Shown: in pieces, positions 6,607 to 35,465 of the stretch
Layout: every line of letters starts with the position of its first letter
Numbering within the stretch: the stretch's first letter is position 1
Assembly: GCA_033762295.1 (NCBI GenBank)
Contig: JANRLW010000007.1
Coordinates: 1-37,128 of the forward strand
Source: Capsulimonadales bacterium
Lineage (GTDB): Bacteria > Armatimonadota > Armatimonadia > Armatimonadales > Armatimonadaceae
Reading direction: 5' to 3'
Length of the DNA: 37,128 bases
The notes under the pieces: generated by a model
Database searches by the model: none
Told to the model about the DNA's origin: nothing
What the model saw: the letters and a program-made list of their open reading frames with translations, nothing else
Made by a program: the position numbers and the translations under genes

Positions 6607-6656
6607 TGCAATATGGAAGCTGAAAAAGTACCGCCTGCTTTCGCCGACGGTAGGAC

Positions 6657-6692: not shown

Positions 6693-7022
6693 TCAGAACT
6701 TTTCGAAGCGGGAGACTTCCATCACGAAAGCGATCGCCCCGCCGACCTCGACTTCCACCGGGGACGGAATAAACGTACCGACCGGGCCGGCATCCGGCGG
6801 CAGGACATTCACGAACTGCTTCCGGGTCTTACTCGCCTCGCCGATAATCCCGAGGCATCGCTCCACGTCCCGGTCGTCCACCCCGATCAGGAGCGTAACG
6901 TTGCCCTCCCGGAGGAACCCGCCGGTCGACCCGATCTTCGTGAATTTGAACCCGCCCCGGAGCAGGCTTTCCGTAATTTTGCCCCTGTCCCGGTCGTGTA
7001 CCACCGCCACTACCAGTTTCAT
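6693..7022 (-). CDS. darA: c-di-AMP receptor, PII-like (DUF970, DarA/PstA)
   Basis: MKLVVAVVHDRD, STGGFLREGNVTLLIGV, VEVGGA motifs; 109 aa; GGAGAAGG SD. Confidence 0.92.
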   Translation of the reverse strand: MKLVVAVVHDRDRGKITESLLRGGFKFTKIGSTGGFLREGNVTLLIGVDDRDVERCLGIIGEASKTRKQFVNVLPPDAGPVGTFIPSPVEVEVGGAIAFVMEVSRFEKF

Positions 7023-8361: not shown

Positions 8362-9703
8362 ATGTACGCCATAGTACCAGACATAGAATGGCACTGCCCA
8401 TCACCAGGACCGCCGGGTGACGCACGGTCGCCAGAAACCCGTCCCTGGCCACACGGGACGCGGTTTGCAGCGCCCCGGCCGGAACATCGCTCGCCGCGAC
8501 CGCCGGGACTTCCGCGACGACCATCGAACCGCGCATCGCCACAAATTTCCCGACCGGCGTACCGGCGCGTACCGGCGCGGGAATCTCCCGCGGCTCCGCC
8601 ACAAATGCCGTGGTAACGTCCGTTCCGCCGGGCAACAGACGGTCGGTCACCGTCTTCAGATCCGCCGTCGTTACGGCCAGCACCGTGGGAAGCACCCCGC
8701 CGGTCACCGGCACCGAGCCAACTCCCTGCCCTTCCGACGCCAGCACCAGCGAACCGAACCTTCGAAATCCCCAGCTCTGCAGGGCGACCGTATCGTCAAT
8801 CGAGGAACCGCCACGCGCGCCGAGAACGACCGAGATCAGCCGATGACCGTCACGCGTCGCCGACCCGACATAACAGAAGCCCGCCGCCCGTGTATTGCCC
8901 GTTTTGATGCCGTCCGCTCCGGGGAACTTCTCGTGGAACCGCCGTTTCATCCGCGAAACGATCCGCGAATCCTCCTTGTTGATGCTTCGTTCGATCTCCC
9001 GTGCCGGGAGCCGCACCGCCTCGGCGAATCGTGGGTTCCGCATCGCCACCGCCGCAATCCGCGCCAGGTCCCGCGCGGTCGAGTAATGGTTCGGTTCCGT
9101 CAGACCGTGCGGATTCACGAAATGCGTATCGTTACACCCGATCTCGGCCGCGCGGCGGTTCATCAGGTCGGCGAACGCCGCCACCGAACCGGCCACATGC
9201 TCCGCGATGACGACGCCGGCGTCGTTCCCGGATCGAAGCATGAAGCCGTAAAGAAGGTTCTCCGCCGTAAATTTCTCCCAGGGCTTGATATGAAGACTGC
9301 TCTCCTCGATCCTGGTTATTGCGGGGTTCGTGCAGGTGATGATGTCTTCCGGACGCGTGTTCTCGACCAGCAATAAACCCGTCATGATCTTGGTGGTCGA
9401 GGCGACCGGCCGGCGAACATCAGCGTTCTTCTCGTACAGCGTCCTCCCGCTGTCGGCATCGATCAGGATCGCCGATGGTACGGAGAGGACGGGAAGCCGG
9501 GCCAGATCGGTCGGATCGAAGAACGGCGGCAGTTTTCCTTTCGTGACCAGAGCCTGCGCATTCGGGATCGTCCAGGGAGCGGCCTTTCGCGAGGGCGGCG
9601 CGTGTTTCGTCGGGCGAGGGTCTTTGGCGGCGGCGGGAAGGGCAAGAGACGCAAGCCACAGGGCGACAACCAGCGGTTTCGTGCGGTCCATTGTCTCTAT
9701 CAT
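8231..9703 (-). CDS. D-alanyl-D-alanine carboxypeptidase (peptidase S11, DacB/DacF-like)
   Basis: Signal peptide, ASTTK (SxxK), SGN, KTG motifs, C-terminal TM; alternative start 9691. Confidence 0.92.
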   Translation of the reverse strand: MIETMDRTKPLVVALWLASLALPAAAKDPRPTKHAPPSRKAAPWTIPNAQALVTKGKLPPFFDPTDLARLPVLSVPSAILIDADSGRTLYEKNADVRRPVASTTKIMTGLLLVENTRPEDIITCTNPAITRIEESSLHIKPWEKFTAENLLYGFMLRSGNDAGVVIAEHVAGSVAAFADLMNRRAAEIGCNDTHFVNPHGLTEPNHYSTARDLARIAAVAMRNPRFAEAVRLPAREIERSINKEDSRIVSRMKRRFHEKFPGADGIKTGNTRAAGFCYVGSATRDGHRLISVVLGARGGSSIDDTVALQSWGFRRFGSLVLASEGQGVGSVPVTGGVLPTVLAVTTADLKTVTDRLLPGGTDVTTAFVAEPREIPAPVRAGTPVGKFVAMRGSMVVAEVPAVAASDVPAGALQTASRVARDGFLATVRHPAVLVMGSAILCLVLWRTYARTFTKGAGRRRNRVAPSGGGDDRGGSGSSRRRNRYTTGSAG

Positions 9704-9774: not shown

Positions 9775-10359
9775 TCAGGCCGCACCGGCGGCGACGAGGG
9801 CGGTTCGCATCGCCTCCTCCCGATTTTCCGGCGGGTCGTCCTCCTCCGGAACGGGAAGTTGCGCCAGAGATGCCAGACCGAAATAGTGCAGGAACGCCTC
9901 GGTCGTCGCATACAGGATCGGACGGCCCGGCGACGGTTTCCGGCCCGCCTCACGGATCAGTTCCCGCTCCACCAGCGTTTTCAGGACACCATCCACCGCC
10001 ACGCCGCGAATCGCCTCGATCTCCGCCTGCGTACACGGCTGGCGGTACGCGATAATCGTCACTGTTTCGAGTGCGGGACGGCTCAGGCGGTTCGCGTTCG
10101 GCGCCAGAAACCGCCCGATCAGCGAAGCGAACTCGGGGCGCGTTCCCATCTGCCAGCCACCCGCGATTTCGATCAGTTGCAGTCCCGAACCGGCCAGACG
10201 GTAACGCTCCCGCAAAGCCGTTAACGCTTCGACCAGACGCTCCTCGCTCGTCCCCGTCAACTTCGCCAGTTCCGCAGGAGCCAGAGGTTCCCCCGCGACG
10301 AACAGGAGGCATTCCAGAATCGCCGTCAGTTCCGCTCCGTCCGTTTCGGTACCGTTCAT
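9775..10359 (-). CDS. scpB: SMC-Scp complex subunit ScpB
   Basis: ILECLLFV, IAGGWQMGTRPE, LSRPALETVTIIAYRQP, IEAIRGV, PGRPILYATT; ATGA overlap with scpA stop. Confidence 0.95.
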   Translation of the reverse strand: MNGTETDGAELTAILECLLFVAGEPLAPAELAKLTGTSEERLVEALTALRERYRLAGSGLQLIEIAGGWQMGTRPEFASLIGRFLAPNANRLSRPALETVTIIAYRQPCTQAEIEAIRGVAVDGVLKTLVERELIREAGRKPSPGRPILYATTEAFLHYFGLASLAQLPVPEEDDPPENREEAMRTALVAAGAA

Positions 10360-11183
10360 CCGTTCGCTCTTTCGATACGCTGGGTTTCCGGAACGTAAAA
10401 GACCCGGATCGTGCCGCAAAAATCATCCTGGGTCACTTCCACCACACCGATCTTCAGCAGTTCCAGCAACGCCAGAAACAATAGAACCACCTCGTTCAAC
10501 AGAAACGGCGGGTCCGGAAGCAGCCATTCGAGTTCGATGCCGCCCCCGCCCGCCTTCTCCGCCCGGGTTCGTACCTCCGCCATCTTGATTCGCAACGTCA
10601 CTTTCTGACGCCGGACCGCCGTGACCGATCGCTCACCCGCTCCGACCCGCTCCAGAACTCGCTCCAGCGTCCGCAAGAGGTCCGATGCGGAGAGAGTGCC
10701 GAACCTCGGCGGGAAGCGGTACTCACCACCATATTCGGACGGCGGACGAAAGAACAACGCCCGGCGATCGGCCTCCGCCTGCCGGAGCGTCTCGGCAATC
10801 GTCTGAAATCGATTGTAGGCCAGCAGTCGCTCGACCAGTTCGGCGCGAGGGTCGTTTCCGGCAGGCAACGCCTCCTCCCCGTCGGACTCGCCCGGTTCCG
10901 CCGACGGCAACGGCGGCAGCAGCATCCGGGATTTGATCTCGATCAGGGTCGCCGCCATCACGAAAAACTCCCCGGCGATATTCAGGTCCATGGCCTCCAT
11001 CGCCGCCAGATGCAGCAGATACTGCTCGCACAGGCTCGTCATCGGCAGGTCGAAAATATCCATCCGCCCCAGCCGAACCAGGTGCAGCAACAGATCGAGC
11101 GGCCCGTTGAAACTGCCCAGTTCGACGGCGGGTAGTTCCCCGGAGAGTCGCTTTTCCCGAATCCCGGTCGCGGTGAAAGGCAT
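10356..11183 (-). CDS. scpA: Segregation/condensation protein ScpA
   Basis: FNGPLDLLLHL, AGEFFVMAATLIEIKSRMLLP, DPRAELVERLL, FLALLELLK; start ATG 11183 within the 1237-aa ORF. Confidence 0.95.
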   Translation of the reverse strand: MPFTATGIREKRLSGELPAVELGSFNGPLDLLLHLVRLGRMDIFDLPMTSLCEQYLLHLAAMEAMDLNIAGEFFVMAATLIEIKSRMLLPPLPSAEPGESDGEEALPAGNDPRAELVERLLAYNRFQTIAETLRQAEADRRALFFRPPSEYGGEYRFPPRFGTLSASDLLRTLERVLERVGAGERSVTAVRRQKVTLRIKMAEVRTRAEKAGGGGIELEWLLPDPPFLLNEVVLLFLALLELLKIGVVEVTQDDFCGTIRVFYVPETQRIERANG

Positions 11184-16360: not shown

Positions 16361-18235
16361 ATGCAATCCACCAACGGAGATACACACCATCGCGAAACCA
16401 TCGGCAACGCCATTACGGACGATTGGCAGGACGTCGTCCTGTGCGCACTGTCGCGGGTGACGATCGCCCCCGATGAGGCGACCGCGATCGGCGAGTCGAT
16501 GCTACGGCAGGCCGAGAGGGAGCGGGACGACGAGCGAGTCGCCTGGTGCCGAACACTGATCGGTGCCGCACAGTTCGGTAAGGGGCACCTTGCCGAAGCC
16601 ATCGCCCTGCTGGAGACCGCACTGAGCGCGTTGGAGCGGTATGGTAACCATCGGCTCAAAGCCTACTGTCTCCATTTCCTCGGCGGAAGTTATTTCAATC
16701 TGGGCGACTATCCACGGGGTCTGGAGTACACCTATCAGGCGTTGACCCTTCGACGCAACCAGGGAAACGATCAGGAATTGACTGCCAGTGTCGGCGCGTA
16801 TGGCGCGATTCAGGGTGCGCTCGGTAATCTTCGCGAAGCTGCGTCGGCGTTCACCGAAGCGCTGGAAATCTCCCGAAGGGCGAACGATCGGTTAGGTCAG
16901 GCCGTGAATCTGGGGAACCTCGGGCGACTCCGATTCAAGATCGATCCGGAAAGCGACGAAACGTTTCGATATCTGTCCGAAAGCATTCGGTTGGCCGAGG
17001 AACTCGGCGAGAAGCGTCTTCTGGTGACTGTCCTGACGAATCAGGCCGAAGCGCTATCACACCGTGGCCGATATGCCGAAGCGCACGCCAGCGCACAGCG
17101 TGCCGTCCGCGAGGCCGAACAGATCCCTGCGTCCCGTTTCCGTGTTCACGCTTTGCTGCAACTCGCCGCTGTCCGAATCGAACAGCGGCAGTGGACCGAA
17201 GCCGAAGTGTCCCTTCAACGGGCGCAGACGGAAGCCGAGAACGGCCACCTCACCGCCGTTCCCCGGCTTTCGATGGTCCGCGGTCAGTTGAACAAGGCCC
17301 ATGGTGATCTGAAACAGGCCTATCGATGTTACCTGGATGCTCGCGAGCAGGCCACCACACTGGGGGAAAAAGAGGTCGTCGCCGGAATCGAACGGGTACT
17401 GTCCGCCGTCAGCGAGGAGATGGGCGATGTGTCGACCGCCCTTCGCCATTTCCGTGCCTTCCATGAACTGCAATGTGCGCTCGATCGGCGCTCAGCCCAG
17501 AATCTGCTACTCGCCGAACACACCCGGGCCATGATCGAACAGGCGCAACGAGAGACGGAACTGGCACGCGCCGAGGCGGAACTCGAGCGACTGCGGAACC
17601 GCGAGTTGTCGGAGGCGAACCGTGAGAAGGATCTCCGGTTGCATCAACTCCAGCAACAGGCCAATCACCTGGCCCGACTTGCCATCGAAGATCCGCTCAC
17701 CGGATTATATAATCGCCGCTACCTCATGGAATACCTGACCGGAGAACTGGACCGCGCCCGCCGGGGGAATTATCCGGTGACGGTGGTCCTTGCCGACCTG
17801 GATAACTTCAAGAAGGTCAACGACCGCTTTTCCCATGCCGTCGGCGACGAAGTACTGAAAACGACCGCCCAGATTCTACGTCAGTCCTGCCGTCGGGGCG
17901 ATGTGGCCGCGCGGTACGGCGGCGAGGAGTTCGTGGTTGTCCTGCCGGAAACCGATGCGGCCGGTGCGGAGATTCTCTGTGAACGCATTCGCCACGGCAT
18001 CGAAAACTTCGGATGGGAGCGGTACCACCCGGACCTCAGGGTCACGATCAGCCTCGGAATTGCCGATGAAGCACTGCGTCAACCGGACCGCCTCCTCGCC
18101 CTCGCCGACCGGCGTCAATATCAGGCCAAACACGATGGGAAAAATCGGATCGTCTCCCGGTTCAACGAACGGCTGGTCGATATGCCTCCCGCAGACGCCT
18201 GCCCGTTCGGATCGGCAACCTGCCCGTCCTTTTAA
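16361..18235 (+). CDS. TPR-repeat diguanylate cyclase
   Basis: TPR repeats, coiled coil, DPLTGLYNRR, DLDNFKKVND, RRGD I-site, RYGGEEF. Confidence 0.93.
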   Translation: MQSTNGDTHHRETIGNAITDDWQDVVLCALSRVTIAPDEATAIGESMLRQAERERDDERVAWCRTLIGAAQFGKGHLAEAIALLETALSALERYGNHRLKAYCLHFLGGSYFNLGDYPRGLEYTYQALTLRRNQGNDQELTASVGAYGAIQGALGNLREAASAFTEALEISRRANDRLGQAVNLGNLGRLRFKIDPESDETFRYLSESIRLAEELGEKRLLVTVLTNQAEALSHRGRYAEAHASAQRAVREAEQIPASRFRVHALLQLAAVRIEQRQWTEAEVSLQRAQTEAENGHLTAVPRLSMVRGQLNKAHGDLKQAYRCYLDAREQATTLGEKEVVAGIERVLSAVSEEMGDVSTALRHFRAFHELQCALDRRSAQNLLLAEHTRAMIEQAQRETELARAEAELERLRNRELSEANREKDLRLHQLQQQANHLARLAIEDPLTGLYNRRYLMEYLTGELDRARRGNYPVTVVLADLDNFKKVNDRFSHAVGDEVLKTTAQILRQSCRRGDVAARYGGEEFVVVLPETDAAGAEILCERIRHGIENFGWERYHPDLRVTISLGIADEALRQPDRLLALADRRQYQAKHDGKNRIVSRFNERLVDMPPADACPFGSATCPSF

Positions 18236-18401
18236 GAGACTTTTTCAACACATCGAACGGCAGTTTTGAGCGATTTATGCCTCATAATTCGAAATTCACC
18301 GATGTTCCTGTTCCGTTTTTTCCATTTTTCCCTTTTTCTTCCATCGGACGATGGATCCGAAACGAGTGGCGAAGAGGATCTGAGGGTGGTATTATATAGA
18401 C

Positions 18402-18482
18402 ATACCGCCGCGGAAAACACCCGTGGAAAGATTCGTTGAGATATCGCGACCTACTATTTTACAGGAGGTCGCGTTTTTGTTT
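18402..18482 (+). ncRNA. Candidate small RNA / attenuating leader, copy A
   Basis: TGGTATTAT extended -10 (18387-18395), 7 nt, TACCGCCG, hairpin, terminator CGCGACCT..AGGTCGCG-TTTTTGTTT; same architecture as copy B. Confidence 0.5.
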
Positions 18483-18535
18483 GCCGGCGTTTATCCTTCG
18501 TCGGTGCTCCGTCGATACGGGAAACGGAGGCAACG

Positions 18536-18949
18536 ATGATCCCCCTTACCCCCGCCGAGAAACAACGGCGTAAATATCGAAGGACAGCCAACCGCGCCCC
18601 CGGACGCGAGGAACGCCTCGCGTCGGAAGAGGTGGCGGAGTACCTTTCCCTGACGTTCGACCCTGATCCCGCTCTGCGTTGCGACGCCGTTCGCGCCCTT
18701 TGCCCCTGTCACGTACAGGCAAACCGAACCGACGTCTGGGATCGCCTGCTTCAACTGTCGAACGATCCGGACCTTGACGTTCGCAAAGCCGTCTTCCACA
18801 CCCTCGGCGACGGATCGCCTGCCGAACGGGAAACCGAGATCGTCCGAATCCTCGAAGCGATGTACCAGGAACCGGACCCGAAATTCCGTCGACAAATCCG
18901 GCATCTGCTGGCCCACTATCGGCGAACCGGCAGGCTCAATATTCTTTAA
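18536..18949 (+). CDS. Small HEAT-repeat protein with CPCH motif
   Basis: GGAGG SD; DPDPALRCDAVRAL, DPDLDVRKAVFHTLG, EPDPKFRRQI repeats. Confidence 0.82.
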   Translation: MIPLTPAEKQRRKYRRTANRAPGREERLASEEVAEYLSLTFDPDPALRCDAVRALCPCHVQANRTDVWDRLLQLSNDPDLDVRKAVFHTLGDGSPAERETEIVRILEAMYQEPDPKFRRQIRHLLAHYRRTGRLNIL

Positions 18950-18968
18950 GCGGTACAATCAGGGCGAC

Positions 18969-19754
18969 ATGTCCGATGCCGCCCTGACCGTACACATCCT
19001 CCATACCAATGATTTCCACAGCCGCCTGACGGAGCAAGGCGTCGCTCGCCTCCGTCAGGCGATCGCAGACCTGAACGGCGCCCCGTATCTGCTGCTGGAC
19101 GCCGGAGACGCCGTTAAGGCGGGCAACATCGGCGTCAATCCGTTCGGCGAACCGATCCTGACGACAATGAGCGAACTCGGTTACCACGCCATGACGATGG
19201 GCAACCGCGAATTCCATGTCTGGCGCGCCGCCCTGTCCGCCAAAATCAACCGCGCCCGTTTTCCGGTCCTCTGCGCCAACGTTTACGCGAAATCCCCCGA
19301 AGCGACCGGCGACGGTCTGCCCGTTCGATCGCACGTCCTCCTCCCCGTCGGCGGTCTGACGATCGGTATCTTCGGTCTGACCGTCCCGATGGTGACGCCG
19401 AAAATGCGGGCGGCCGCCCTTTCCCAGTTCCTGTTCGATGACCCGATCGCCGCCGCGAAACGGCAGGTGCTGGAACTTCGATACAAAGCGGACCTCCTGA
19501 TCGCGTTGACCCATATCGGCCTGACGCAGGATCGCCGTCTGGCGGAATCCGTCTCCGGAATCGACCTCATTATCGGCGGCCATTCCCACCATTCCCTGAC
19601 CGCGCCGGAAGTCGTTTCGGAAACACCGATCGTCCAGACCGGCGCTCATGCCCATTCCTTCGGTCACTGCCGGATGGAATTCCGCCGCTCGGGTATCCGG
19701 ACCGAGTACGCACTGTCGGCGTTGCAGGAAAAAGGCGCGCAAAAGCGAAAGTAA
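18969..19754 (+). CDS. Calcineurin-like metallophosphoesterase (5'-nucleotidase N-terminal domain only)
   Basis: HTNDFH, DAGD, GNREF, LTHIG, GGHSH; TACAAT 9 nt upstream of ATG 18969. Confidence 0.9.
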   Translation: MSDAALTVHILHTNDFHSRLTEQGVARLRQAIADLNGAPYLLLDAGDAVKAGNIGVNPFGEPILTTMSELGYHAMTMGNREFHVWRAALSAKINRARFPVLCANVYAKSPEATGDGLPVRSHVLLPVGGLTIGIFGLTVPMVTPKMRAAALSQFLFDDPIAAAKRQVLELRYKADLLIALTHIGLTQDRRLAESVSGIDLIIGGHSHHSLTAPEVVSETPIVQTGAHAHSFGHCRMEFRRSGIRTEYALSALQEKGAQKRK

Positions 19755-19761
19755 ACGACCG

Positions 19762-20691
19762 ATGAACGATGGCTCCTTCTGCGCGGTCTGTGGTGAAACC
19801 GCCACCACTCACTGGCGAACCGCCCCGGATAATCTCGTGGGCGGCAATCGCACCTTTACGGCGGTTCGCTGCGTCCGATGCGGATTGGTTCGGCTCTCCC
19901 CGCGCCCGGACGCGGATACGATGGGGCGGGCCTACGCGGCCTCGACCTATGCGCGTGCCGAAGGCGACGATCGAACCGTCGAACTCGGGAAGCGCCTCGA
20001 CCGCTTTTTCGAGAAACAGGCGGACCGTGCGGTCACTGCCTACGGATCGCGTCCTCCGGGACGCCTCCTCGATGTCGGGTGCGGCGACGGACGGTTCCTC
20101 GACGCGATGCAGCAGCGCGGCTGGAGGGTGGAGGGCCTGGAGACAGACCCGGTAGCCGCCGGCCTGGCCCGGCGCCGGACCGAAAGCGTCATCCATGAAG
20201 CCTATCTTGAAGACGCCTCGATACCGGCGGCCGGATTCGAAATGGTCTCGCTGCTGCATGTGCTGGAACATGTTCCCGATCCCCGCGAAACGCTGACCGC
20301 CGCGTTCCGCGCCCTGAAACCGGACGGCATGCTTCTTCTGGCCCTTCCCAATGTCGCGAGCGTGGAGGCGGAACTCTTCGGAGTCGTCTGGTACCCGTTG
20401 GACCTGCCGCGTCACTACTGGGGATTCACCCCGCATACTCTCGTACGCCTGGCCGAAGAGTGCGGCGGGACGGTCACCGGACTGCGCTACTTTCCCTTCC
20501 TTTTCGCGCCGCAAAGCGTTCGGTACATTCTTCGCGGAGCCGGAACCGGCAGCGGTCTGAACGCCGGCGCACGCACCGAGGCGGGCGGACTGCGTACCTG
20601 GCTCTTCGATACCCTCCTTCGGTCCGCCGAATCCGTCGGCGGGAAGATGCCCGGGGAAGTGATGGAACTGACCGCCCTGCGGGCACGGTAG
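19762..20691 (+). CDS. Class I SAM-dependent methyltransferase with N-terminal Zn ribbon
   Basis: CAVC..CVRCGL; LLDVGCGDG; HVLEHVPDP; LPRH. Confidence 0.9.
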   Translation: MNDGSFCAVCGETATTHWRTAPDNLVGGNRTFTAVRCVRCGLVRLSPRPDADTMGRAYAASTYARAEGDDRTVELGKRLDRFFEKQADRAVTAYGSRPPGRLLDVGCGDGRFLDAMQQRGWRVEGLETDPVAAGLARRRTESVIHEAYLEDASIPAAGFEMVSLLHVLEHVPDPRETLTAAFRALKPDGMLLLALPNVASVEAELFGVVWYPLDLPRHYWGFTPHTLVRLAEECGGTVTGLRYFPFLFAPQSVRYILRGAGTGSGLNAGARTEAGGLRTWLFDTLLRSAESVGGKMPGEVMELTALRAR

Positions 20692-20700
20692 TACGTTCGT

Positions 20701-22686
20701 ATGCTTTCCTCCCTCCTTGCCGTCGGTCTGCTGCTCCTGCTGATCGGTCTGACCTTCGGACTGGGCCAGACGATCGTTCGACGCTTCGCCGCGGACGCGC
20801 CGTTCGCCGAACGGCTCGTTTTCGCCGTCCCGATCGGCATCGGGATTGTCGGGTTTGTCGTCTGGTTCTGCGGCCTGATCGGTTTCCTTTCGCCGATCCT
20901 GTTCTACGGGTTGCTCGGACTCGGACTTCCCGGAATCGGCCTCCTCCTCTGGGACGCTCTGAAATCCCGTTCGGAAACGCGTCCGGACCGTGGTCCGCTG
21001 AACCATGCCGCGACCGTCCTACTGGGGCTTTTTTCGCTCTGCACCCTGGTCGGCGCCCTCGCCCCCCCGTCCATTCTCGAATGGGACGCCCTTTCCTACC
21101 ATCTGGCCAACCCGAAGACCTGGCTCGGCCACGGCCGCATCGATTTCCTGCCCTGGGACCACCATTCCAACTTTCCGTTCCTGGTACAGATGCACTACCT
21201 GCTCATGCTGGGCGTGGGTAGCATCGCCGGGGCGAAGCTGGTGCACTGGCTCTGCTACCTGTGGCTGTTCCTGTCGGTCCGGACCTTCGCGCGCCGTCAT
21301 TTCACCGCCGACGGTCAGGGCGCGATCCTGGGCGATGTCGCCGCGCTCCTTCTGGCGTCGGTTCCGATCGTGGTATGGGAAGCCTCGGTCGCCTACGTCG
21401 ACCTGGCGACCGCGCTCTTCACCTGGCTAGCCCTGTACGCGCTGATCAACGCCGTTTCCGTCCCCAAAAACGGCCCGGCGACGTCCGTCTCCTGGCTTCT
21501 CATTTCCGCCGTGTTGATGGGCTTCGCCCTCGGCACCAAATACACCGTCCTCGGATTCTGGGGCATTTTGCTGGTCGGCATCCTCGGCTGGCACGTGGTC
21601 GTGCATCGAACCTGGGCGAAGGAAACCCTGCCGCATGCGGCCCTCTGGGGTGGAATTTCTCTTCTGATCGGCCTTCCCTGGTATATCAAGAACTGGATTG
21701 TCGCCGGGAATCCGGTCTATCCGTTCGCTTACGGTCTGTTCGGCGGGAGGTACTGGTCCGACGAGAACGCCACCGCCTACACGGCGGAACAGGCGCGTTT
21801 CGGGTACGGCAAAACCCCCCTCGACCTCCTGCTGTCGCCCTGGCAGGTGAGCCAGGAACTCCTCTTTCTTCCCTCCTATTACGCCACCACCGGACGTCGG
21901 TTCATCTTTACCGAATACATCGTCTACGGCTTCGGGCTGTCGCCCGTGTTCGTCGGTCTGCTTCTGACTTTGCCGTTTCTGGGCCGACGCCTCTCCCGTC
22001 CGTCCCTTTACTGCCTGCTTTTCGGGGGCGGGGTATATCTTTTCTGGTTCCTGATCATGCAGCAGACGCGCTACCTGATCCCCGCCCTGCCCGCCTTCGC
22101 GCTGGTAATCGCCGAAGCGGTCGTCCTTCTCCTGACGGGAACGAAATCGTTCGTGCGCTTTCTCGGGGCCGGGCTGGCCGGGCTTTCGGTATTCTGGGGA
22201 CTTTTTCTCGCGGCCGGAATCGCCGCTTTCGGCGTCAACGGCGTACGAATCCTACCGAATGAGCCGGTACCGCGCCTGGCACCTGCGCTTCCGGTCGTCC
22301 TCGGGGCGGTCGACCGAAGGGAGTACGTCGAACGAACCCTCCCCGGTATCGGCGCGGCGTCGTTCTGGATCAACGAGAACACGGAGCCGCAGGAAAAGGT
22401 GGCGATGTTCGACGAAACCCGTGGGTTCTGGCTTGACCGCGAATATGTCTGGGCACAGCCGGACCACGCCGCCGGTCTTCTCCCCTGGGAGGAATATCGC
22501 GACGTCGACGACTGGCTGGCCGACTTCAAAAAACGCGGCTACACGGTTCTTCTGCTCGGATTATCGCCCGAGCTATTCCCGGAAGACGGTCGACGCTGGC
22601 GGTCGCTGATGGCCGAAGCGATCGCTTCCGGAAAATTGACCCCCGTCTTTGCGAAAGGCACGTACCGTGTCTATCACATTCCCTGA
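20701..22686 (+). CDS. Polytopic GT-C fold glycosyltransferase (GT39/ArnT-like)
   Basis: Many TM helices; WDALSYHL, AYVDLA, GTKY, PWYIKNWIVAGNPVYPF, RYLIP. Confidence 0.8.
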   Translation: MLSSLLAVGLLLLLIGLTFGLGQTIVRRFAADAPFAERLVFAVPIGIGIVGFVVWFCGLIGFLSPILFYGLLGLGLPGIGLLLWDALKSRSETRPDRGPLNHAATVLLGLFSLCTLVGALAPPSILEWDALSYHLANPKTWLGHGRIDFLPWDHHSNFPFLVQMHYLLMLGVGSIAGAKLVHWLCYLWLFLSVRTFARRHFTADGQGAILGDVAALLLASVPIVVWEASVAYVDLATALFTWLALYALINAVSVPKNGPATSVSWLLISAVLMGFALGTKYTVLGFWGILLVGILGWHVVVHRTWAKETLPHAALWGGISLLIGLPWYIKNWIVAGNPVYPFAYGLFGGRYWSDENATAYTAEQARFGYGKTPLDLLLSPWQVSQELLFLPSYYATTGRRFIFTEYIVYGFGLSPVFVGLLLTLPFLGRRLSRPSLYCLLFGGGVYLFWFLIMQQTRYLIPALPAFALVIAEAVVLLLTGTKSFVRFLGAGLAGLSVFWGLFLAAGIAAFGVNGVRILPNEPVPRLAPALPVVLGAVDRREYVERTLPGIGAASFWINENTEPQEKVAMFDETRGFWLDREYVWAQPDHAAGLLPWEEYRDVDDWLADFKKRGYTVLLLGLSPELFPEDGRRWRSLMAEAIASGKLTPVFAKGTYRVYHIP

Positions 22687-22713
22687 AGCAATCCGAAAAG
22701 CAGGTACGAGGCC

Positions 22714-23991
22714 ATGACCGCAACCAAAGACAACAGAACGACCGCTCTGCTGATCGGCATTACGGTCGTGGCCGTGGCGCTGGCGGTGATGTTCGCCTGG
22801 CGTGTGCCGTTTGACGCTCGATCGGGCTGGAATCCCGATGAAACGTCGCACCTGGATTACCTGCGCCTGCTCTGGGAGAACAAGGCTCCGGTTCGGTTCA
22901 CGGCGGGCGACCCCGCCTACTTCGAAACGCATCAACCGCCGCTGTACTACCTGTTCGCCCTTATTCCCTACGTGCTGACCGGGGGGAATGTCTTCGCCGT
23001 CCGCCTGGCGGCCGTTCCGATACAGGTGGCCACCATCCTTCTGGCGTTCCGGGCGGGGCGTGACCTCTTCCCCTCCCGTCCGGAAGTCGGCCTCGGCGCG
23101 GCGGCCTTCGTCGCCTTCCTTCCGACCCAGGCCCAGTTGTCGGGAGCCATCAACAACGACGGACTGACGACCCTGATTTCCGTGGCGATTCTGTGGCGAC
23201 TGGGTCTTCTCGTCCGGGGGACGGCGACCGATCTCCGTTCGTCGCTCCTGGTCGGCGTTCTGTTCGGCCTGGGATTGTATACGAAACTGACCGTGATCCA
23301 GTTGATTCCGGCGATGGCGGTCGCCTGTCTGCTCGCTCCGACCGGCGACCTCTCGCGAAAGGTCCGGCAGGGGGCGGTCTTCCTGGCGGTTGCGATCGGC
23401 GTCGGCATCCTGATTGCCGCCCCGTGGCTGATCCGCAATACGCTCCTTTACGGCGATCCGCTGAACATCAAAATTTTCCCGCTGACCGCCGGGGAGAACA
23501 CGCCGACCCCGACCATGATGATGCCGCTGTTCGAAGCCCTGGGAATGGGCGGTTCCTGGACCGACTACTGGCGGATCAACGCGGTGCGAACGTTCTACAC
23601 CTTTTTCGCCATCATGCCCCCCACCGGGTCGCAGGCATTGACACCGCCGATCCTCGGTCTGGTTGCCGTGATTCTTCTGTCGCTGGGCGGTCTGGTGGGC
23701 GCGTTCCGGGCGGAAAAGGAAGGCGGTGTCCCGCCGGACGAACGCCGCAACCTGCTCCTGATGCTGGTCTGTCTGCTCTTTATCGTCCCGTTCTTCGTTC
23801 GGTTCAACCTGCAGTTTTTCCAGGCGCAGGGCCGCTATTTCTACCCGGCGCTCCTTCCGGTCGCGCTGATCTGTGTTACGGGGTGGCGAAATGTTCTGGG
23901 AGAACGTCGGGGATGGCTCGGGGCGTTGCTGCCGGGTGCGGTACTTCTGGTGATGTGCCTTCTGCAGTGGCTGCGTTTCGGAACCGCATGA
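22714..23991 (+). CDS. Polytopic GT-C fold glycosyltransferase (GT39/DUF2142-like)
   Basis: PDETSH, HQPPLYY, INNDGL, TK, PWLIRN..YGDP, QGRYFYP. Confidence 0.8.
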   Translation: MTATKDNRTTALLIGITVVAVALAVMFAWRVPFDARSGWNPDETSHLDYLRLLWENKAPVRFTAGDPAYFETHQPPLYYLFALIPYVLTGGNVFAVRLAAVPIQVATILLAFRAGRDLFPSRPEVGLGAAAFVAFLPTQAQLSGAINNDGLTTLISVAILWRLGLLVRGTATDLRSSLLVGVLFGLGLYTKLTVIQLIPAMAVACLLAPTGDLSRKVRQGAVFLAVAIGVGILIAAPWLIRNTLLYGDPLNIKIFPLTAGENTPTPTMMMPLFEALGMGGSWTDYWRINAVRTFYTFFAIMPPTGSQALTPPILGLVAVILLSLGGLVGAFRAEKEGGVPPDERRNLLLMLVCLLFIVPFFVRFNLQFFQAQGRYFYPALLPVALICVTGWRNVLGERRGWLGALLPGAVLLVMCLLQWLRFGTA

Positions 23992-23995
23992 CCCC

Positions 23996-24079
23996 AAAAA
24001 CAACAAAAGCGACACACCTTCAAGAGGTTGCCGCCCATTCTCACGTCACCTAATTATTTCGCCTTTTCATCGGCGGTAC
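23996..24079 (-). ncRNA. Candidate small RNA, copy B
   Basis: Minus strand TGGTATTAT (24094-24086), 7 nt, TACCGCCG, terminator GCGGCAACCT..AGGTGTGTCGC-TTTTGTTGTTTTT; stands alone between convergent genes. Confidence 0.55.
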
Positions 24080-24297
24080 GCATTTATAATACCATAATTT
24101 CGGGGGTATTTCCACCCCTCCGTCAAAAGACGACGAAGCCGCAAAAACAACCGGAACGGAAACCAAACCCCGGAGAACGGCCGTAAATCGGATTATTTCC
24201 GCGCTGAACCATTGGAAATGGTAATCCTTCGTCTCAAATTCATCTCATTTTATGGAGCCGGAAGAAATTCCCGGACGACGCGGATACCGCTCGCGAA

Positions 24298-24325
24298 TCC
24301 GGCCCCGGAGAGTTCCGGGGCCGGA
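24298..24325 (-). terminator. Hairpin terminator after sugar isomerase
   Basis: TCCGGCCCCGGA-gagt-TCCGGGGCCGGA perfect 12-bp stem 5 nt past the stop; short U tract. Confidence 0.65.
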
Positions 24326-24330
24326 CCACA

Positions 24331-25200
24331 TTACGCGCTGCGCAGGAAGTTCAACGAGTGCAGAAGACCCGACTTCTCGCCCTCCGCGGAACCGTTGAAG
24401 TTACCGTCCTCCAGTTCGACGCTGACAATGCCGGAAAACGCGCCGGCGGCCAGAATCTTGAAAATCTCCGTCCAGCGGGCGACGCCGTGGCCGGGAATCG
24501 TGTACCGCCAGACGTGCTCGCCGTAACCGAACGGCGACTCGAAGGCGCTGTTCTGATACAGGCCCAATTCGTACGCCTTCTCGGGGAAGAGTTCCGTGTC
24601 CTTGCCGTGGACATGGCGGACATGCGGCAAAAATTCGTTCAGGAAACGGATATGGTCGATCCCCATACGGATCAGGTGTGACGGATCGTAATTGATCGCC
24701 ACCGACGGCAGGCCGATATCCTTGATCACCGATCGGTAGGTCTCCGGATTACACGCAAGATGCGGCAGACTGCCGCCGCCCGGCCAACCCTCGATCACGA
24801 TATAGGCGTCGACGCTGTTCGCCGCCTCCGCTACCGGAGCGAAACCCTCCAGGGCGATCCGATAGTTCTCGGCCCGCGATCGGCTGGCGTCGCCCGGCAG
24901 GATGGTGAAGAAAAGTTTTGCGCCGAGATCCGCTTTCTCCTTGATATAGGCTGCGGCCTTCTCGCCCGCCTCCTTACGTTTAACCGGCTCGCTGTCCGTC
25001 CACCCGCCCGGAAAATCGACCGTTCCCAGCTTCAGACCGTGCGCCTTCAGTACGTCAATGTCCTCCGCCGACGGTTGTCCCAGGTCGAGCGCCTCGAATC
25101 CGTTCTCGGACGCCCACTTCGCCGCCGCCGCGGTGTCCCGCTGCCACTCGGACCAACCCTTACGAAAACCGATGGCAAAATTGCCCGTTCGCGTCGCCAT
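24331..25200 (-). CDS. Sugar phosphate isomerase/epimerase (AP endonuclease 2 TIM barrel)
   Basis: IVIEGWP, NYDPSH, HVHGKD, PGHG, SVELED; GGAGG SD before ATG 25200. Confidence 0.88.
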   Translation of the reverse strand: MATRTGNFAIGFRKGWSEWQRDTAAAAKWASENGFEALDLGQPSAEDIDVLKAHGLKLGTVDFPGGWTDSEPVKRKEAGEKAAAYIKEKADLGAKLFFTILPGDASRSRAENYRIALEGFAPVAEAANSVDAYIVIEGWPGGGSLPHLACNPETYRSVIKDIGLPSVAINYDPSHLIRMGIDHIRFLNEFLPHVRHVHGKDTELFPEKAYELGLYQNSAFESPFGYGEHVWRYTIPGHGVARWTEIFKILAAGAFSGIVSVELEDGNFNGSAEGEKSGLLHSLNFLRSA

Positions 25201-25299
25201 ATCCACCTCCGAAATCGAAACGATTCGGCATTCCCTTCGGAAACCCCTTTAAGGGTACGACGGCGATCGGCGTTTTCCATGCTCGATTCGAAAGGTTTT

Positions 25300-29588: not shown

Positions 29589-29831
29589 ATGTATGATGTT
29601 TCCAACACCACCGTCCTCGAGGACGGACCGCGCTGGTGTCCGGTCTGCGCGGTCGTACTCAAGCCGTTCGAACGCAACGGTGTCGAAATGGACTTCTGCC
29701 CTCAGTGTCTGGGGGTCTGGCTCGATCAGGGCGAACTGGACGTTCTGATCCGCCGTTCGGTCACCATTCAGGTCGCGGAACCGTCGTCCTTGCCCCCGGT
29801 CAAGCCGCCGTTCGCATTCTGCGCTCCCTGA
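29589..29831 (+). CDS. zf-TFIIB zinc-ribbon protein
   Basis: CPVC..GVEMDFCPQCLGVWLDQGEL. Confidence 0.85.
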   Translation: MYDVSNTTVLEDGPRWCPVCAVVLKPFERNGVEMDFCPQCLGVWLDQGELDVLIRRSVTIQVAEPSSLPPVKPPFAFCAP

Positions 29832-32045: not shown

Positions 32046-32236
32046 AACTTCCCCCACTCAAACCGGTGCTGTCGCCACGGCGACTGTCGAAAATTTCATA
32101 GAACACCCCCAATCGGGGAGACGTCTTGTCCGCAGAGAGATTCACCGGGGGGAAAGTCCTGACCTCCCCTTCGCGGCCGTTTTCCGGGATTTCGTAAATG
32201 GGGACGGCCGGTCCGGTAACGAAATCGGAGACAACT

Positions 32237-32863
32237 ATGAGCCGAAATACATTTGTCACCCTCTGGGCGTTTGCCGCCTCCCTGGCGCTCCTATTGTCGC
32301 TTCTGCCCGGCGTTCACGCGAACGCCGATTCGTCCGTGACACCGCCGACCCCGAATCTGCCGCTGCGCACGATCGACGGGTTCGAGGTGCCGTATTCCCG
32401 GTTTCAGGGGAAAGTGCTGCTGATCGTCAATACGGCGTCCCAGAGCGGATACACCCCGCAATATGCCGGATTGGAAAAACTGTATGCCCGTTTCAAGAAC
32501 CAGGGGCTGGAAATCCTCGCGTTTCCGACCAATGATTTCGGCGGCGAGGAACCCGGCAGCAGCGCCGAAATTCGAACCTTTGCGACCATGAACTACGGCG
32601 TTTCGTTCCCGTTGTTCGCCAAAGTCAACCTGAAAGGCCCCGAGGCGTCGCCGCTTTTCGCTTACCTTACCAGCAAGGAGGCCAACCCGGAAATCGCGGG
32701 ACCGATCACCGATAGTTTCACCAAGTTTCTGGTGAGTCGCGACGGCCGGGTCCTGGCCCGGTTCGCTCCGGGCGATGCGCCGCTCTCGCCCGAAGTCGTT
32801 GCGGCCGTCGAGGCGGCGCTCAATCGGAACGCCCCCTTCAAACTGGCGAAACGGCCCCGCTGA
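32237..32863 (+). CDS. Glutathione peroxidase homologue, secreted, catalytic residues replaced
   Basis: GKVLLIVNTASQSGYTPQY, AFPTNDFGGEEPG, ITDSFTKFLV; signal peptide; no Cys; GGAG SD before ATG 32237. Confidence 0.9.
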   Translation: MSRNTFVTLWAFAASLALLLSLLPGVHANADSSVTPPTPNLPLRTIDGFEVPYSRFQGKVLLIVNTASQSGYTPQYAGLEKLYARFKNQGLEILAFPTNDFGGEEPGSSAEIRTFATMNYGVSFPLFAKVNLKGPEASPLFAYLTSKEANPEIAGPITDSFTKFLVSRDGRVLARFAPGDAPLSPEVVAAVEAALNRNAPFKLAKRPR

Positions 32864-32964: not shown

Positions 32965-33543
32965 ATGGTCTCCCGCCTGATTTCCGGACTCCTTCTCATC
33001 GCCGCGTCGGTCCTGATGGTCGGTTCCCTCGAACCCGCCGAGGCCGGTCCTCCCCGTGGGCCGCTCGATTTTTCGGCAAAGAACATCGATGGCAAGGAAG
33101 TACCCCTCGCGCGCTACCGTGGGAATGTCGTCGTCATCGTCAACACCGCCTCCCGCTGCGGATACACCCCGCAATATGCCTCGCTGGAAAAACTGTACGG
33201 CAAGTACAAAAACCAGGGCTTGCGGATTCTGGCCTTCCCGTCCAACGATTTCGGTCAGCAGGAACCGGGGAGCGAGTCGGACATCAAGCAGTTCTGCGCC
33301 CTTAACTACAAAACGTCCTTCGACCTCTTCTCCAAGGTCGTCACCAACGGACCGAACGCCGCGCCTCTGTACCGGTGGCTGACCGGCAAGGAGACCAACG
33401 GAAAGTTCGCCGGCGATATCGCCTGGAACTTCACCAAGTTCGTGGTGGACAAAAAGGGCAACGTCATCGCCCGGTTCCCCTCGAACATCGATCCGATGTC
33501 TCCCGAGTTCGAAAAAGCCGTTCAGGCCGCGCTCAAAGGCTGA
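32965..33543 (+). CDS. Glutathione peroxidase family (Cys-GPx), secreted
   Basis: VNTASRCGYTPQY, FPSNDFGQQEPG, FC resolving Cys, WNFTKF; signal peptide. Confidence 0.95.
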   Translation: MVSRLISGLLLIAASVLMVGSLEPAEAGPPRGPLDFSAKNIDGKEVPLARYRGNVVVIVNTASRCGYTPQYASLEKLYGKYKNQGLRILAFPSNDFGQQEPGSESDIKQFCALNYKTSFDLFSKVVTNGPNAAPLYRWLTGKETNGKFAGDIAWNFTKFVVDKKGNVIARFPSNIDPMSPEFEKAVQAALKG

Positions 33544-33666: not shown

Positions 33667-33948
33667 ATGATTCGACCCGTCTCGTTACGATTCCCCTTAC
33701 ATTCCCGGCTTGTCGCCCTTTCGGCGCTGGCGATTCCGCTCGTCTCCGGTTGTCCTTCCGCCGACCCGGCGGCGACCACCCGAAGCGCGTCGCCCGACAA
33801 ACGCTGGGAGGATTTCAAAAAGGGCAATGCCCGCGAGGTCGAGACCGCGCAGTCGGCGTACGAACGACGACAGGAACAGCTTGCCGCCAAACGTCGACAG
33901 GCCGCCGGCGGAACGGCGCCGTCGCCGGAAGCCGAAAAAAAACCCTGA
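33667..33948 (+). CDS. Small lipoprotein
   Basis: GAGGA SD; LVALSALAIPLVSG-C lipobox; short charged helical body. Confidence 0.65.
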   Translation: MIRPVSLRFPLHSRLVALSALAIPLVSGCPSADPAATTRSASPDKRWEDFKKGNAREVETAQSAYERRQEQLAAKRRQAAGGTAPSPEAEKKP

Positions 33949-35097: not shown

Positions 35098-35102
35098 CAC
35101 CG

Positions 35103-35465
35103 CTGAGCGTCCTGAGAAACTCGCCCGGTAAAACGGTTCTCCCGCTAAACCCGTTCGCCGTTCGGATTCTGATCGGAGTCGGGTTGACCGCGCTTTTCTG
35201 CCTGATTCTCTGGTTTCTGATACCGCCGCCGCCCGAAAAGCCGGTCGTCAATCGACCACCCGATCCGTTCGCCGATCCCGCTGCCGGGATGGCCCATATC
35301 CGAAAACTGGCGGAACAATACGGTGACGATTTCGAACGTCTTAGCAACGACGACCGATTGTTCCTGAACTCGATCGCGTACGGCCATGGAAGGGAGCTTC
35401 TGGCCAAGACCGCGCGAGAACTGAAAAACAAACCGTCCGGTTCGCCAACGCCGCCACAACCCTGA
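35103..35465 (+). CDS. Small single-TM protein (probable CTG start)
   Basis: AAGGAGGT SD 7 nt before CTG 35103; [21 protein letters not shown] then Pro-rich linker; alternative TTG 35184. Confidence 0.65.

What the first reader, a model, noticed from the sequence alone, without database searches (positions are those of the whole stretch)
18387..24094. Twin ~80-nt intergenic transcription units: candidate undescribed sRNA family
Seen: A (+, 18387-18482) TGGTATTAT-atagaca-TACCGCCG-cg-GAAAA..CGTTGAGA..GCGACC..GGTCGC-gTTTTT; B (-, 24094-23996) TGGTATTAT-aaatgcg-TACCGCCG-at-GAAAA..CGTGAGA..GCGGCA..TGTCGC-TTTT. They share the extended -10, 7-nt spacing, 5' octamer, A-rich hairpin loop, 43 vs 44 nt to the terminator stem and TGGnnA at -35, while intervening bases diverge. 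Both lie in AT-rich gaps. B has no downstream sense gene, so it cannot be a cis riboswitch. Inference: sibling sRNAs or protein-sponging RNAs. I do not recognise the family.
Basis: partly seen in the sequence, partly recalled or inferred. Interest (0 to 1): 0.78.

Follow-up and report, generated by a model that had tools for sequence, protein, structure and literature searches.

The report
Twin short RNAs bracketing an operon
Two look-alike promoter-to-terminator units of about 80 bases sit at either end of a five-gene cell-envelope glycosylation operon in an Armatimonadota-like bacterium; they probably make a pair of small regulatory RNAs, one doubling as the operon's leader, but only two copies exist, so a family is not shown.

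Summary
TGGTATTAT-N7-TACCGCCG-NN-GAAAA occurs exactly twice, at 18387-18417 (+) and 24094-24064 (-). Each copy has TGGnnA 17 nt upstream, a small 5' hairpin, and a stem plus U-tract terminator starting 43/44 nt after the predicted start. Each lies in an AT-rich gap.

Rfam 15 has no match. Similarity is confined to the 31-nt block and the terminator base; the RNA centre is not significantly alike. The block alone is only modestly significant: 8 of 400 intergenic shuffles reach 25/31. The case therefore rests on sequence and architecture together.

A and B face inward around one operon (HEAT, phosphoesterase, methyltransferase, two GT-C membrane proteins). No other promoter lies between terminator A and the first ATG, so A is positionally a leader/attenuator. 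B is an orphan twin.

No third copy was found in the contig. All 30 exact-motif hits among 185,579 species genomes look like chance. The lineage is poorly sampled (nearest ScpB 72% identical), so covariation could not be tested.

Verdict: a plausible new small-RNA/leader pair, with function inferred only. Interest is moderate.

The parts
18367..18372 (+). A: -35-like hexamer TGGCGA, 17 nt before the -10 hexamer
   Evidence: Read. It matches 3 of 6 positions of TTGACA, below the threshold of the scan. It shares GTGGnnA with B.
18387..18395 (+). A: extended -10 TGGTATTAT
   Evidence: The TGnTAnnWT census gives 10 hits in the window, several at plausible promoters (16285 GGDEF, 11198 ScpA, 8379 RluB).
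18402..18482 (+). A: predicted RNA of about 81 nt. It runs from the purine 7 nt after the -10 to the end of the T-tract and is also the first 81 nt of the HEAT-operon leader.
   Evidence: The start and end are inferred from the promoter and terminator, not measured.
18403..18417 (+). A: conserved 5' box TACCGCCG-cg-GAAAA
   Evidence: It is identical to B except for the 2 spacer bases.
18408..18426 (+). A: 5' hairpin CCGCGG / CCGTGG with a 7-nt A-rich loop
   Evidence: It appears in both the MFE and centroid structures.
18434..18441 (+). A: CGTTGAGA in the single-stranded centre. Its CGU can pair with the GCG of the terminator 5' arm in the nascent RNA.
   Evidence: nascent fold. The similarity to B here is not significant.
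18445..18482 (+). A: intrinsic terminator, stem CGCGACCT/AGGTCGCG followed by TTTTTGTTT
   Evidence: and (-13.9 kcal/mol).
18509..18538 (+). A leader, distal part: CTCCGT...ACGGAG hairpin covering the GGAGG Shine-Dalgarno (18526-18530) and the ATG at 18536
   Evidence: Fold of 18403-18540 and the sequence. This part has no counterpart in B (418 of 1000 shuffles score as well).
18536..23991 (+). Bracketed operon. HEAT-repeat protein 18536-18949; metallophosphoesterase about 18950-19754; SAM methyltransferase to 20691; 661-aa LIC_10190-like membrane protein 20701-22686; PMT_2/ArnT-like GT-C glycosyltransferase 22714-23991.
   Evidence: Pfam and NCBIfam. The start codons of genes 2 and 3 are approximate.
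24109..24114 (-). B: -35-like hexamer TGGAAA, 17-nt spacer
   Evidence: This is the only sigma-70-like site the scan reports in 17800-24800.
24086..24094 (-). B: extended -10 TGGTATTAT
23997..24079 (-). B: predicted RNA of about 83 nt, convergent on the 3' end of the PMT_2 gene (stop codon ends at 23991)
   Evidence: The ends are inferred.
24064..24078 (-). B: conserved 5' box TACCGCCG-at-GAAAA
24060..24075 (-). B: 5' hairpin CGCC / GGCG with an 8-nt A-rich loop
23996..24035 (-). B: intrinsic terminator, stem GGCGGCAACCT/AGGTgTGTCGCT followed by TTTTGTTGTTTTT. It lies next to the operon's stop codon: the T-tract ends 5 nt past it.
   Evidence: and (-11.1 kcal/mol for the core).

Best explanation
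A and B are two old paralogous copies of one module. The module is a sigma-70-type promoter with an extended -10, a transcript of about 80 nt that starts with (A/G)UACCGCCG-NN-GAAAA and folds that box partly into a small 5' hairpin, and an intrinsic terminator at a fixed distance. By default each makes a short terminated RNA.

A is also the 5' leader of the five-gene envelope-glycosylation operon. Every transcript that reaches the HEAT gene must pass terminator A, so A acts in cis as a transcription attenuator. A second hairpin in the leader masks the Shine-Dalgarno. B is an orphan twin that converges on the 3' end of the same operon.

The shared 5' box is the handle for one common trans-acting partner, a protein or an RNA. 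B therefore either competes with leader A for that partner (leader mimic/decoy) or acts beside A's short product as a sibling small RNA.

Shown: the sequence features and their positions. Inferred: transcription, the RNA ends, attenuation, and the common partner.
For: 1. **Twin block and conserved sub-blocks.** The block is exact in both copies, and it is the only significant similarity between the two gaps. Inside it the 7-nt spacer is only 3/7 identical, and the flanks are at random level: 17/60 upstream without gaps, and the centre reaches p=211/1000. The three sub-blocks therefore look conserved by selection, not by recent copying.
2. **Promoter reading fits the organism.** TGnTAnnWT sites sit before GGDEF, ScpA and RluB, and lacI has TTGACA-17-TATTAT. 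A purine lies 7 nt after the -10 in both copies.
3. **Terminators at RNA positions 44 and 45.** In my census only 5 of 31 terminator-like sites were flagged intergenic. The other three flagged sites (3437+, 6627-, 5518-) lie 5-40 nt after a stop codon. A and B lie about 210 and 296 nt after the preceding same-strand stop (with coordinates). The TIM-barrel gene has its own 13-bp GC hairpin just past its stop. A and B therefore look like separate units.
4. **No other promoter for the operon.** There is no promoter-like site between T-tract A (ends 18482) and the ATG at 18536. There is a good GGAGG Shine-Dalgarno, which the fold of 18403-18540 pairs.
5. **Weak alternative pairing.** In the nascent RNA of both copies, the CGU of the CGU(U)GAGA block pairs with the GCG of the terminator 5' arm. 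This is the geometry a factor-stabilised antiterminator would need.
6. **Geometry.** The two copies bracket one operon and face inward.
Against: - There are only two copies, so there is no covariation test and no expression data.
- The block's similarity is only modestly beyond chance on its own: 8 of 400 intergenic shuffles reach 25/31, and one of 6 window-wide shuffles comes within 0.5 bit.
- Fold energies are not exceptional. A has z -1.89 (12 of 200 shuffles as good) and B has z -1.23 (24 of 200).
- The predicted antiterminator pairings are weak (total nascent-RNA MFE, which includes the 5' hairpin, is -12.8 and -14.5 kcal/mol) and could arise by chance in GC-rich arms.
- The two 5' hairpins use different registers of the conserved box.
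- B controls no sense gene, so a cis role cannot be the common function.
- No candidate RNA-binding regulator was recognised among the neighbouring genes.
- None of 30 exact-motif loci elsewhere resembles the module.
Confidence: 0.4

Rival explanations
1. A and B are purely trans-acting sibling small RNAs. They are independent base-pairing regulators whose conserved 5' end or centre is a seed. The position of A before the operon is incidental, and the operon is fed by a promoter I failed to see or by leak-through.
For: The promoter, roughly 80-nt body and terminator with a long U-tail are typical of sRNA genes. Conserved ends with a divergent centre is the pattern I recall for sibling sRNAs such as OmrA/OmrB. 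The centre is single-stranded and A/U-rich in both predicted ensembles. There is no Rfam match.
Against: Half of the conserved octamer is buried in the predicted 5' hairpin. No promoter for the operon lies downstream of terminator A.
Confidence: 0.25
2. The conserved block acts at the DNA level. It is one promoter type with an operator for a shared transcription factor spanning -12 to +16, and the short RNAs are by-products.
For: The conserved block spans the -10 and the start site. GGTA-N11-TACC is a small dyad in both copies, extended to 7 of 8 arm positions in A. The reverse strand carries a perfect TATAAT in both.
Against: The dyad is only 4 bp in B. A DNA-only role does not explain a terminator at the same distance in both copies. 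The reverse-strand TATAAT has no TG, no -35-like hexamer and no gene or terminator ahead of it.
Confidence: 0.12
3. The resemblance is chance. Two unrelated near-consensus promoters happen to share a GC-rich octamer and happen to be followed by terminators.
For: Of 400 intergenic shuffles, 8 reach 25/31, and a window-wide shuffle reached 52.4 against 52.9 bits. Nine of the identical bases are promoter consensus. The centre and flanks are unrelated. No further copies were found anywhere.
Against: Several features occur together: the same -35 form at the same 17-nt spacing, the same 7-nt distance to the octamer, the same NN-GAAAA, and terminators at positions 44 and 45. Only 5 of 31 terminator-like sites were flagged intergenic in 37 kb.
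Confidence: 0.12
4. The elements are 3'-UTR modules of the upstream same-strand genes (GGDEF for A, the TIM-barrel operon for B). The hairpins, including GGUAU...AUACC, and the terminator belong to those mRNAs. At most, 3'-UTR-derived sRNAs come from an internal promoter.
For: Both copies lie downstream of a same-strand gene. GGDEF has no other terminator. With the upstream bases included, an extra hairpin forms: 8 bp in A and 5 bp in B.
Against: The distances from the stop codons (about 210 and 296 nt) are far larger than for the other three flagged intergenic terminators (5-40 nt). The TIM-barrel gene has its own strong hairpin. TGGTATTAT reads more simply as an extended -10, as at other genes here.
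Confidence: 0.08
5. The two copies are terminal inverted repeats of a mobile or invertible 5.7-kb segment.
For: They are the longest inverted repeat in 17900-24700 (31 nt, 81%) and flank five genes.
Against: There is no target-site duplication for any symmetric boundary; the only match is one 4-mer at k=35. No transposase, integrase or invertase appears among the Pfam hits of the window. GC content inside equals the flanks. Inversion between inward-facing identical promoters would change nothing.
Confidence: 0.03

Closest known systems
Sibling base-pairing sRNAs such as OmrA/OmrB of enterobacteria (recalled; no paper read here)
   Same: There are two paralogous RNAs of about 80-90 nt with nearly identical 5' parts, similar terminators and a divergent centre, each with its own promoter and terminator.
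   Different: OmrA/B are adjacent tandem genes with known Hfq dependence, an EnvZ-OmpR promoter and mapped targets. Here the copies are 5.6 kb apart and inverted, one sits as an operon leader, half of the conserved box is predicted to be paired, and no target or chaperone is known. There is no sequence or Rfam relation.
Leader-mimic decoy RNAs: EutX/Rli55, which sequesters the ANTAR antiterminator EutV away from eut leaders (recalled)
   Same: A stand-alone small RNA carries the same recognition element as the terminator-containing leader of the regulated operon.
   Different: ANTAR sites are two hairpins with hexaloops, and EutX/Rli55 carries an AdoCbl riboswitch. The loops here are 7 and 8 nt, no ANTAR or other antiterminator gene was seen, and binding is wholly hypothetical.
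Protein-dependent antitermination at RAT-type leaders (BglG/SacY/LicT) and terminated riboswitch leaders acting in trans (SreA/SreB) (recalled)
   Same: The layout is promoter, short structured leader, intrinsic terminator, then operon. A weak alternative hairpin overlaps the terminator 5' arm, and the terminated leader could also act in trans.
   Different: No RAT-like sequence, no PRD-type regulator and no Rfam riboswitch was found. At about 43 nt, the pre-terminator part is shorter than most aptamers.
Convergent sRNA gene sharing a terminator region with the end of an operon (general arrangement, recalled)
   Same: B ends 5 nt from the stop codon of the last operon gene, and its hairpin is the only terminator-like structure there.
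   Different: On the + strand the hairpin is followed by CCATTCTC, a poor U-tract. Whether it terminates in both directions is uncertain.

Membership tests
Any Rfam 15 family | Covariance-model score at or above the family's gathering threshold | tested here: not met
   In the whole window at gathering score, only AdoCbl-II at 6604-6518 (-) matches. In the two gaps at E<=10 there are 2 weak hits each (best E 2.8, 12-16 bits against gathering 34.8-46).
Independently transcribed bacterial small RNA gene (generic) | Own promoter | tested here: inconclusive
   The consensus evidence consists of an extended -10 in both copies, a -35 matching 3/6 (A) and 4/6 (B), and a purine at +1. There are no transcript data.
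Independently transcribed bacterial small RNA gene (generic) | Own intrinsic terminator giving a defined short product | tested here: met
   Each has a hairpin plus U-tract, -13.9 and -11.1 kcal/mol, and they are two of the five terminator-like sites flagged intergenic. This is a prediction only.
Independently transcribed bacterial small RNA gene (generic) | Detectable stable transcript of the predicted size | not testable with these tools
   No expression data are available for this contig.
   There are 2 members. Model R1 finds no third copy in the window (next best 10.9 bits, E 2.9). Of 30 exact-motif loci, 0 have the box or a model hit at the motif. The 5' hairpins use different registers.
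Transcription attenuator / riboswitch leader | Promoter, leader and terminator directly upstream of the regulated ORF on the same strand | tested here: inconclusive
   This is met for A: the terminator ends 53 nt before the ATG at 18536, with no other promoter found. It is not met for B, which runs into the antisense of PMT_2.
Transcription attenuator / riboswitch leader | Mutually exclusive antiterminator structure | tested here: inconclusive
   Weak CGU:GCG-based pairings with the terminator 5' arm appear in both nascent RNAs. They are too weak and too few to tell from chance.
CsrB/RsmY-type protein sponge | Multiple GGA motifs in loops or single strands | tested here: not met
   A has three GGA motifs and B has none (read). 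The defining feature is recalled.
Transposon or invertible segment bounded by inverted repeats | Target-site duplication, and a transposase or recombinase | tested here: not met
   There is no flanking direct repeat beyond one 4-mer. There is no such Pfam domain among the 39 ORFs scanned.
Sigma-54 promoter | GG and GC elements 10 nt apart (TGGCAC-N5-TTGC; recalled consensus) | tested here: not met
   B has TGG...TGC at the right spacing. A has GA/AC there, and that stretch is the non-conserved 7-nt spacer.

The most novel reading that the evidence does not exclude
A and B are the founding pair of an undescribed regulatory RNA class in Armatimonadota. In this class an operon's terminator-containing leader and a stand-alone mimic of it, placed convergently at the operon's far end, share a 5'-terminal box read by one antitermination factor. 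The mimic would set the threshold for switching on an envelope-glycosylation operon.
Probability: 0.15. Interest if true: 0.6.

Novelty: new member of a known kind. Interest (0 to 1): 0.35.

Why it matters
No regulatory RNA of Armatimonadota turned up in my three literature searches (listings only, no paper read). The phylum is barely cultured. If real, the pair would give a first handle on post-initiation control there, for an operon that probably modifies the cell envelope. It would also be a compact case of a leader and an orphan twin sharing one recognition box.

If it is only two similar promoters, it is ordinary. Either way, the module (strong extended -10 promoter, short RNA, clean terminator) is easy to test in a reporter.

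Tried and rejected
- **Exact-motif scan of genome contigs.** It returned 30 loci, each single and in unrelated taxa, mostly inside coding sequence. None of the 30 has NN-GAAAA after the octamer, and none has an R1 hit at the motif. These are chance hits, and the source genome is not in that collection. This used the only genome scan, so syntenic loci of relatives could not be fetched.
- **Covariance model R1.** It was built from A and B with an 11-pair structure. It found no third copy in the window.
- **Relaxed 15-nt box.** At up to 2 mismatches there are 7 hits against 1.58 expected. The five extra hits all have 2 mismatches. The one at 6652-6638 (-) is the 5' arm and loop of the terminator after the c-di-AMP-receptor gene. 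The exact TACCGCCG at 35221 lies in a probable small ORF. None has the promoter.
- **blastn 'distant' of both gaps against plasmids.** No match. Phages and E. coli were not searched.
- **Target search.** RNAduplex of the first 44/45 nt against 24 translation-initiation regions of the window showed nothing beyond the random-window background (mean about -25 kcal/mol). This is uninformative.
- **Small ORFs.** A has a 38-codon GTG ORF (18423-18539) ending in ATGA with the HEAT start. It has no Shine-Dalgarno, GC3 of about 0.5 by hand count against about 0.75 in genes, and no counterpart in B. B has only a 6-codon ORF. Rejected.
- **Reverse-strand promoter** (perfect TATAAT), **sigma-54** and **TIR/inversion** readings were rejected, as set out under rivals and membership.
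- **Downstream similarity** (GAAACGgAGgCA) is not significant: 418 of 1000 shuffles score as well.
- **A possible AAAAC/GUUUU (A) versus AAAAG/CUUUU (B) pairing** between the box and the U-tract was seen by eye. With two sequences it is an anecdote, and it is not in any predicted fold.
- **Literature.** 'Planctomycetes + transcription start sites + sRNA' gave 5 papers, none relevant. The 9-mer gave 260 papers, all of the 10 listed unrelated. 'Armatimonadetes / small RNA / terminator' listed nothing relevant. Only listings were seen.
- **My first taxon guess (PVC, from DUF1559/DUF1501/DUF1800)** was corrected.


Full report
**What is there**

- **A, + strand.** TGGCGA (18367-18372), a 17-nt spacer that ends in TGG, then TATTAT (extended -10, 18387-18395). 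Then 7 nt, TACCGCCG (18403-18410), cg, GAAAA (18413-18417). A hairpin CCGCGG/CCGTGG follows, then an A/U-rich single strand containing CGTTGAGA (18434-18441). The terminator CGCGACCT...AGGTCGCG (18445-18473) is followed by TTTTTGTTT (to 18482).
- **B, - strand.** TGGAAA (24114-24109), 17 nt, TGGTATTAT (24094-24086), 7 nt, TACCGCCG (24078-24071), at, GAAAA (24068-24064). Then a hairpin CGCC/GGCG, CGTGAGA (24045-24039), and the terminator GGCGGCAACCT...AGGTgTGTCGCT (24035-24008) with TTTTGTTGTTTTT (to 23996).
- **Shared layout.** The base 7 nt after the -10 is a purine in both. Counted from it, the terminator stem starts at position 44 (A) and 45 (B). Both gaps are the most AT-rich stretches of the region (GC 0.517 and 0.490).

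**Is it more than chance?**

- The motif-specific test is strong but post hoc: 2 matches against 0.03 expected, and 0 of 100 shuffles give 2.
- Pairwise blastn of the two gaps gives a single significant HSP, the 31-nt block at 81%, E 4.5e-5.
- In an all-against-all comparison of 31-mers over the whole window, pairs with at least 25/31 identity are few. They are the two glutathione-peroxidase paralogues, the two DUF1559 paralogues, an internal repeat, three palindromes, A-B, and two lower-scoring pairs in coding DNA.
- Window-wide, the composition-weighted score of A-B (52.9 bits) was not reached in 6 local-composition shuffles, but one reached 52.4.
- Within the 3299 nt of intergenic DNA, 8 of 400 shuffles reach 25/31.

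Sequence alone is therefore only modestly significant. Outside the block the copies are not demonstrably alike:

- RNA centre: 211 of 1000 shuffles score as well.
- Everything after the box, including the U-tract: 12 of 1000.
- Upstream 120 nt: 49 of 1000 (all).
- Ungapped upstream identity: 17/60.

The architecture carries the case. My terminator census found 31 hairpin+TTTT sites in the window, and 5 were flagged intergenic. A and B are two of those five, at the same distance from the same box. The -35 form and the 17-nt spacing are also shared.

Inside the block the 7-nt spacer is only 3/7 identical. The three sub-blocks therefore look selectively kept in an old duplication rather than recently copied.

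**Context**

Pfam and NCBIfam give this map:

- TPR-GGDEF cyclase, 16361-18235 (+)
- **A**
- HEAT-repeat protein, 18536-18949 (+)
- Metallophosphoesterase, to 19754 (+)
- SAM methyltransferase, to 20691 (+)
- 661-aa LIC_10190-like membrane protein, 20701-22686 (+)
- PMT_2/ArnT-like glycosyltransferase, 22714-23991 (+)
- **B**, on the minus strand, pointing at the end of that gene
- Xylose-isomerase-like TIM-barrel gene, 24331-25206 (-)

A and B therefore bracket one five-gene operon, probably for envelope glycosylation, and face inward. They are the longest inverted repeat of the region.

The long antisense ORF under B (22573-24015) has no Pfam hit, whereas the + strand gene does. B indeed has no sense gene ahead.

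The organism is not PVC, as I first guessed from the DUF1559/DUF1501/DUF1800 genes. The named relatives of its ScpB are Armatimonadota (Armatimonas rosea 61%, several MAGs 60-69%), and the best non-self hit is only 72% identical. The window is a whole 37128-nt contig of a poorly sampled lineage.

**Promoter direction**

The organism appears to use sigma-70-type promoters.

- TGnTAnnWT occurs 10 times in the window. Occurrences include sites just upstream of GGDEF (16285), ScpA (11198) and RluB (8379).
- lacI has TTGACA-17-TATTAT.

The reverse complement of the block contains a perfect TATAAT. That direction has no TG, no -35-like hexamer, and no terminator or gene ahead. A sigma-54 reading fails for A. 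I take the forward reading.

**Separate units or 3' UTRs?**

The other three flagged intergenic terminators sit 5-40 nt after a stop codon (3437+, 6627-, 5518-). A and B sit about 210 and 296 nt after the preceding same-strand stops. The TIM-barrel gene has its own 13-bp GC hairpin right after its stop. This favours separate units, though GGDEF has no terminator of its own.

**Cis or trans?**

Between the U-tract of A (18482) and the ATG (18536) I find no -10-like element, and the scan reports none. Any transcript that reaches the operon must therefore read through terminator A. By position, A is a leader with an attenuator. The fold of 18403-18540 also pairs the GGAGG Shine-Dalgarno with an upstream CUCCGU.

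In both nascent RNAs the CGU of CGU(U)GAGA can pair with the GCG of the terminator's 5' arm. This is a weak alternative that a factor could stabilise. B cannot be a cis leader.

The simplest model that covers both is one module used twice: once as the operon's leader, and once as an orphan that makes only the short RNA. The 5' box would be the handle for a common partner. I put this at 0.4. Pure sibling sRNAs get 0.25, a DNA-level operator 0.12, chance 0.12, 3'-UTR modules 0.08, and a mobile or invertible segment 0.03. The last has no target duplication, no recombinase and no GC difference.

**Comparison with known families**

- **Rfam 15.** There is no match. At gathering score, only an AdoCbl-II riboswitch elsewhere in the window matches. 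At E<=10 in each gap there are only two hits, of 12-16 bits.
- **Family membership.** Two members only. Model R1 finds no third copy in the window.
- **Exact-motif scan.** The scan of 185,579 species genomes returned 30 single loci in unrelated taxa. None has the GAAAA box or a model hit at the motif.
- **Limits of that negative.** The nearest sampled relatives are distant, so the negative result is weak. Syntenic comparison and covariation remain untested.
- **Resemblances.** By resemblance only, recalled and not read here, the closest things are sibling sRNAs of the OmrA/OmrB type, leader-mimic decoys such as EutX/Rli55, and RAT-type antitermination leaders. No defining feature of those families was met.
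- **Literature.** The three searches (listings only) found nothing on such RNAs in this phylum.

**Verdict**

The claim of an undescribed sRNA family is not established, because only a pair exists. One member is better read as an operon leader. I class it as a new member of a known kind (small RNA/attenuator module), of moderate interest.

Noticed in passing
window 6518-6604 (-): An AdoCbl-II (B12) riboswitch (42.7 bits, E 4.1e-07) lies directly upstream of a DUF1559 / prepilin-type N-methylation-motif protein gene (5562-6356, -). This is an unusual-looking gene for B12 control.
   Followed up: no
window 6628-6652 (-): The terminator hairpin after the c-di-AMP-receptor gene reads TACCGTCGGCGAAAG...GGCGGTA + TTTTT. 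Its 5' arm and loop match the A/B 5' box at 13 of 15 positions. This may be chance, or a hint that the box is a recurrent hairpin arm.
   Followed up: partly
window 9775-10419 (-) and the whole contig: The nearest named ScpB relatives are Armatimonadota, and the best non-self identity is 72%. The DUF1559/DUF1501/DUF1800 genes that suggested PVC are therefore in an Armatimonadota-like genome with no close sampled relative.
   Followed up: partly
window 32198-32863 and 32965-33543 (+): There are two tandem glutathione-peroxidase paralogues. They give the best direct 31-mer pair in the window (27/31).
   Followed up: no
window 5562-6356 (-) and 35555-36457 (+): There are two DUF1559 / N_methyl paralogues in inverted orientation, 29 kb apart, sharing 29/31 nt at the prepilin motif.
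   Followed up: no
window 6829-8394 (-): The S4 / pseudouridine-synthase ORF has a C-terminal tail of about 300 aa with 21-nt-period direct repeats (7283, 7304, 7335). As listed, it overlaps the c-di-AMP-receptor gene (6693-7022) by about 190 nt. The true stop or frame may differ.
   Followed up: no
window 3409-3436, 5500-5532, 36486-36517: These are long perfect or near-perfect GC-rich palindromes at gene ends (12-13 bp stems, -17 to -30 kcal/mol), apparently gene terminators. The one at 36486-36517 lies between convergent genes.
   Followed up: no
window 24296-24327 (-): A 13-bp GC hairpin lies immediately after the TIM-barrel gene stop with no U-tract. It is possibly a U-tract-less terminator, and it separates that operon from B.
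   Followed up: partly
window 29589-29831 (+), 33668-33948 (+), about 35100-35465 (+): Three small ORFs sit in apparent gaps: one zinc-ribbon-like with CxxC...CxxC, and two with signal- or anchor-like N-termini. Parts of these 'intergenic' regions are therefore probably coding.
   Followed up: no
window 18300-18340 (+) and 24130-24175 (-): Pyrimidine/T-rich tracts containing TTCCGTT lie 50-100 nt upstream of both twin promoters. The upstream similarity is marginal (49 of 1000 shuffles score as well).
   Followed up: partly
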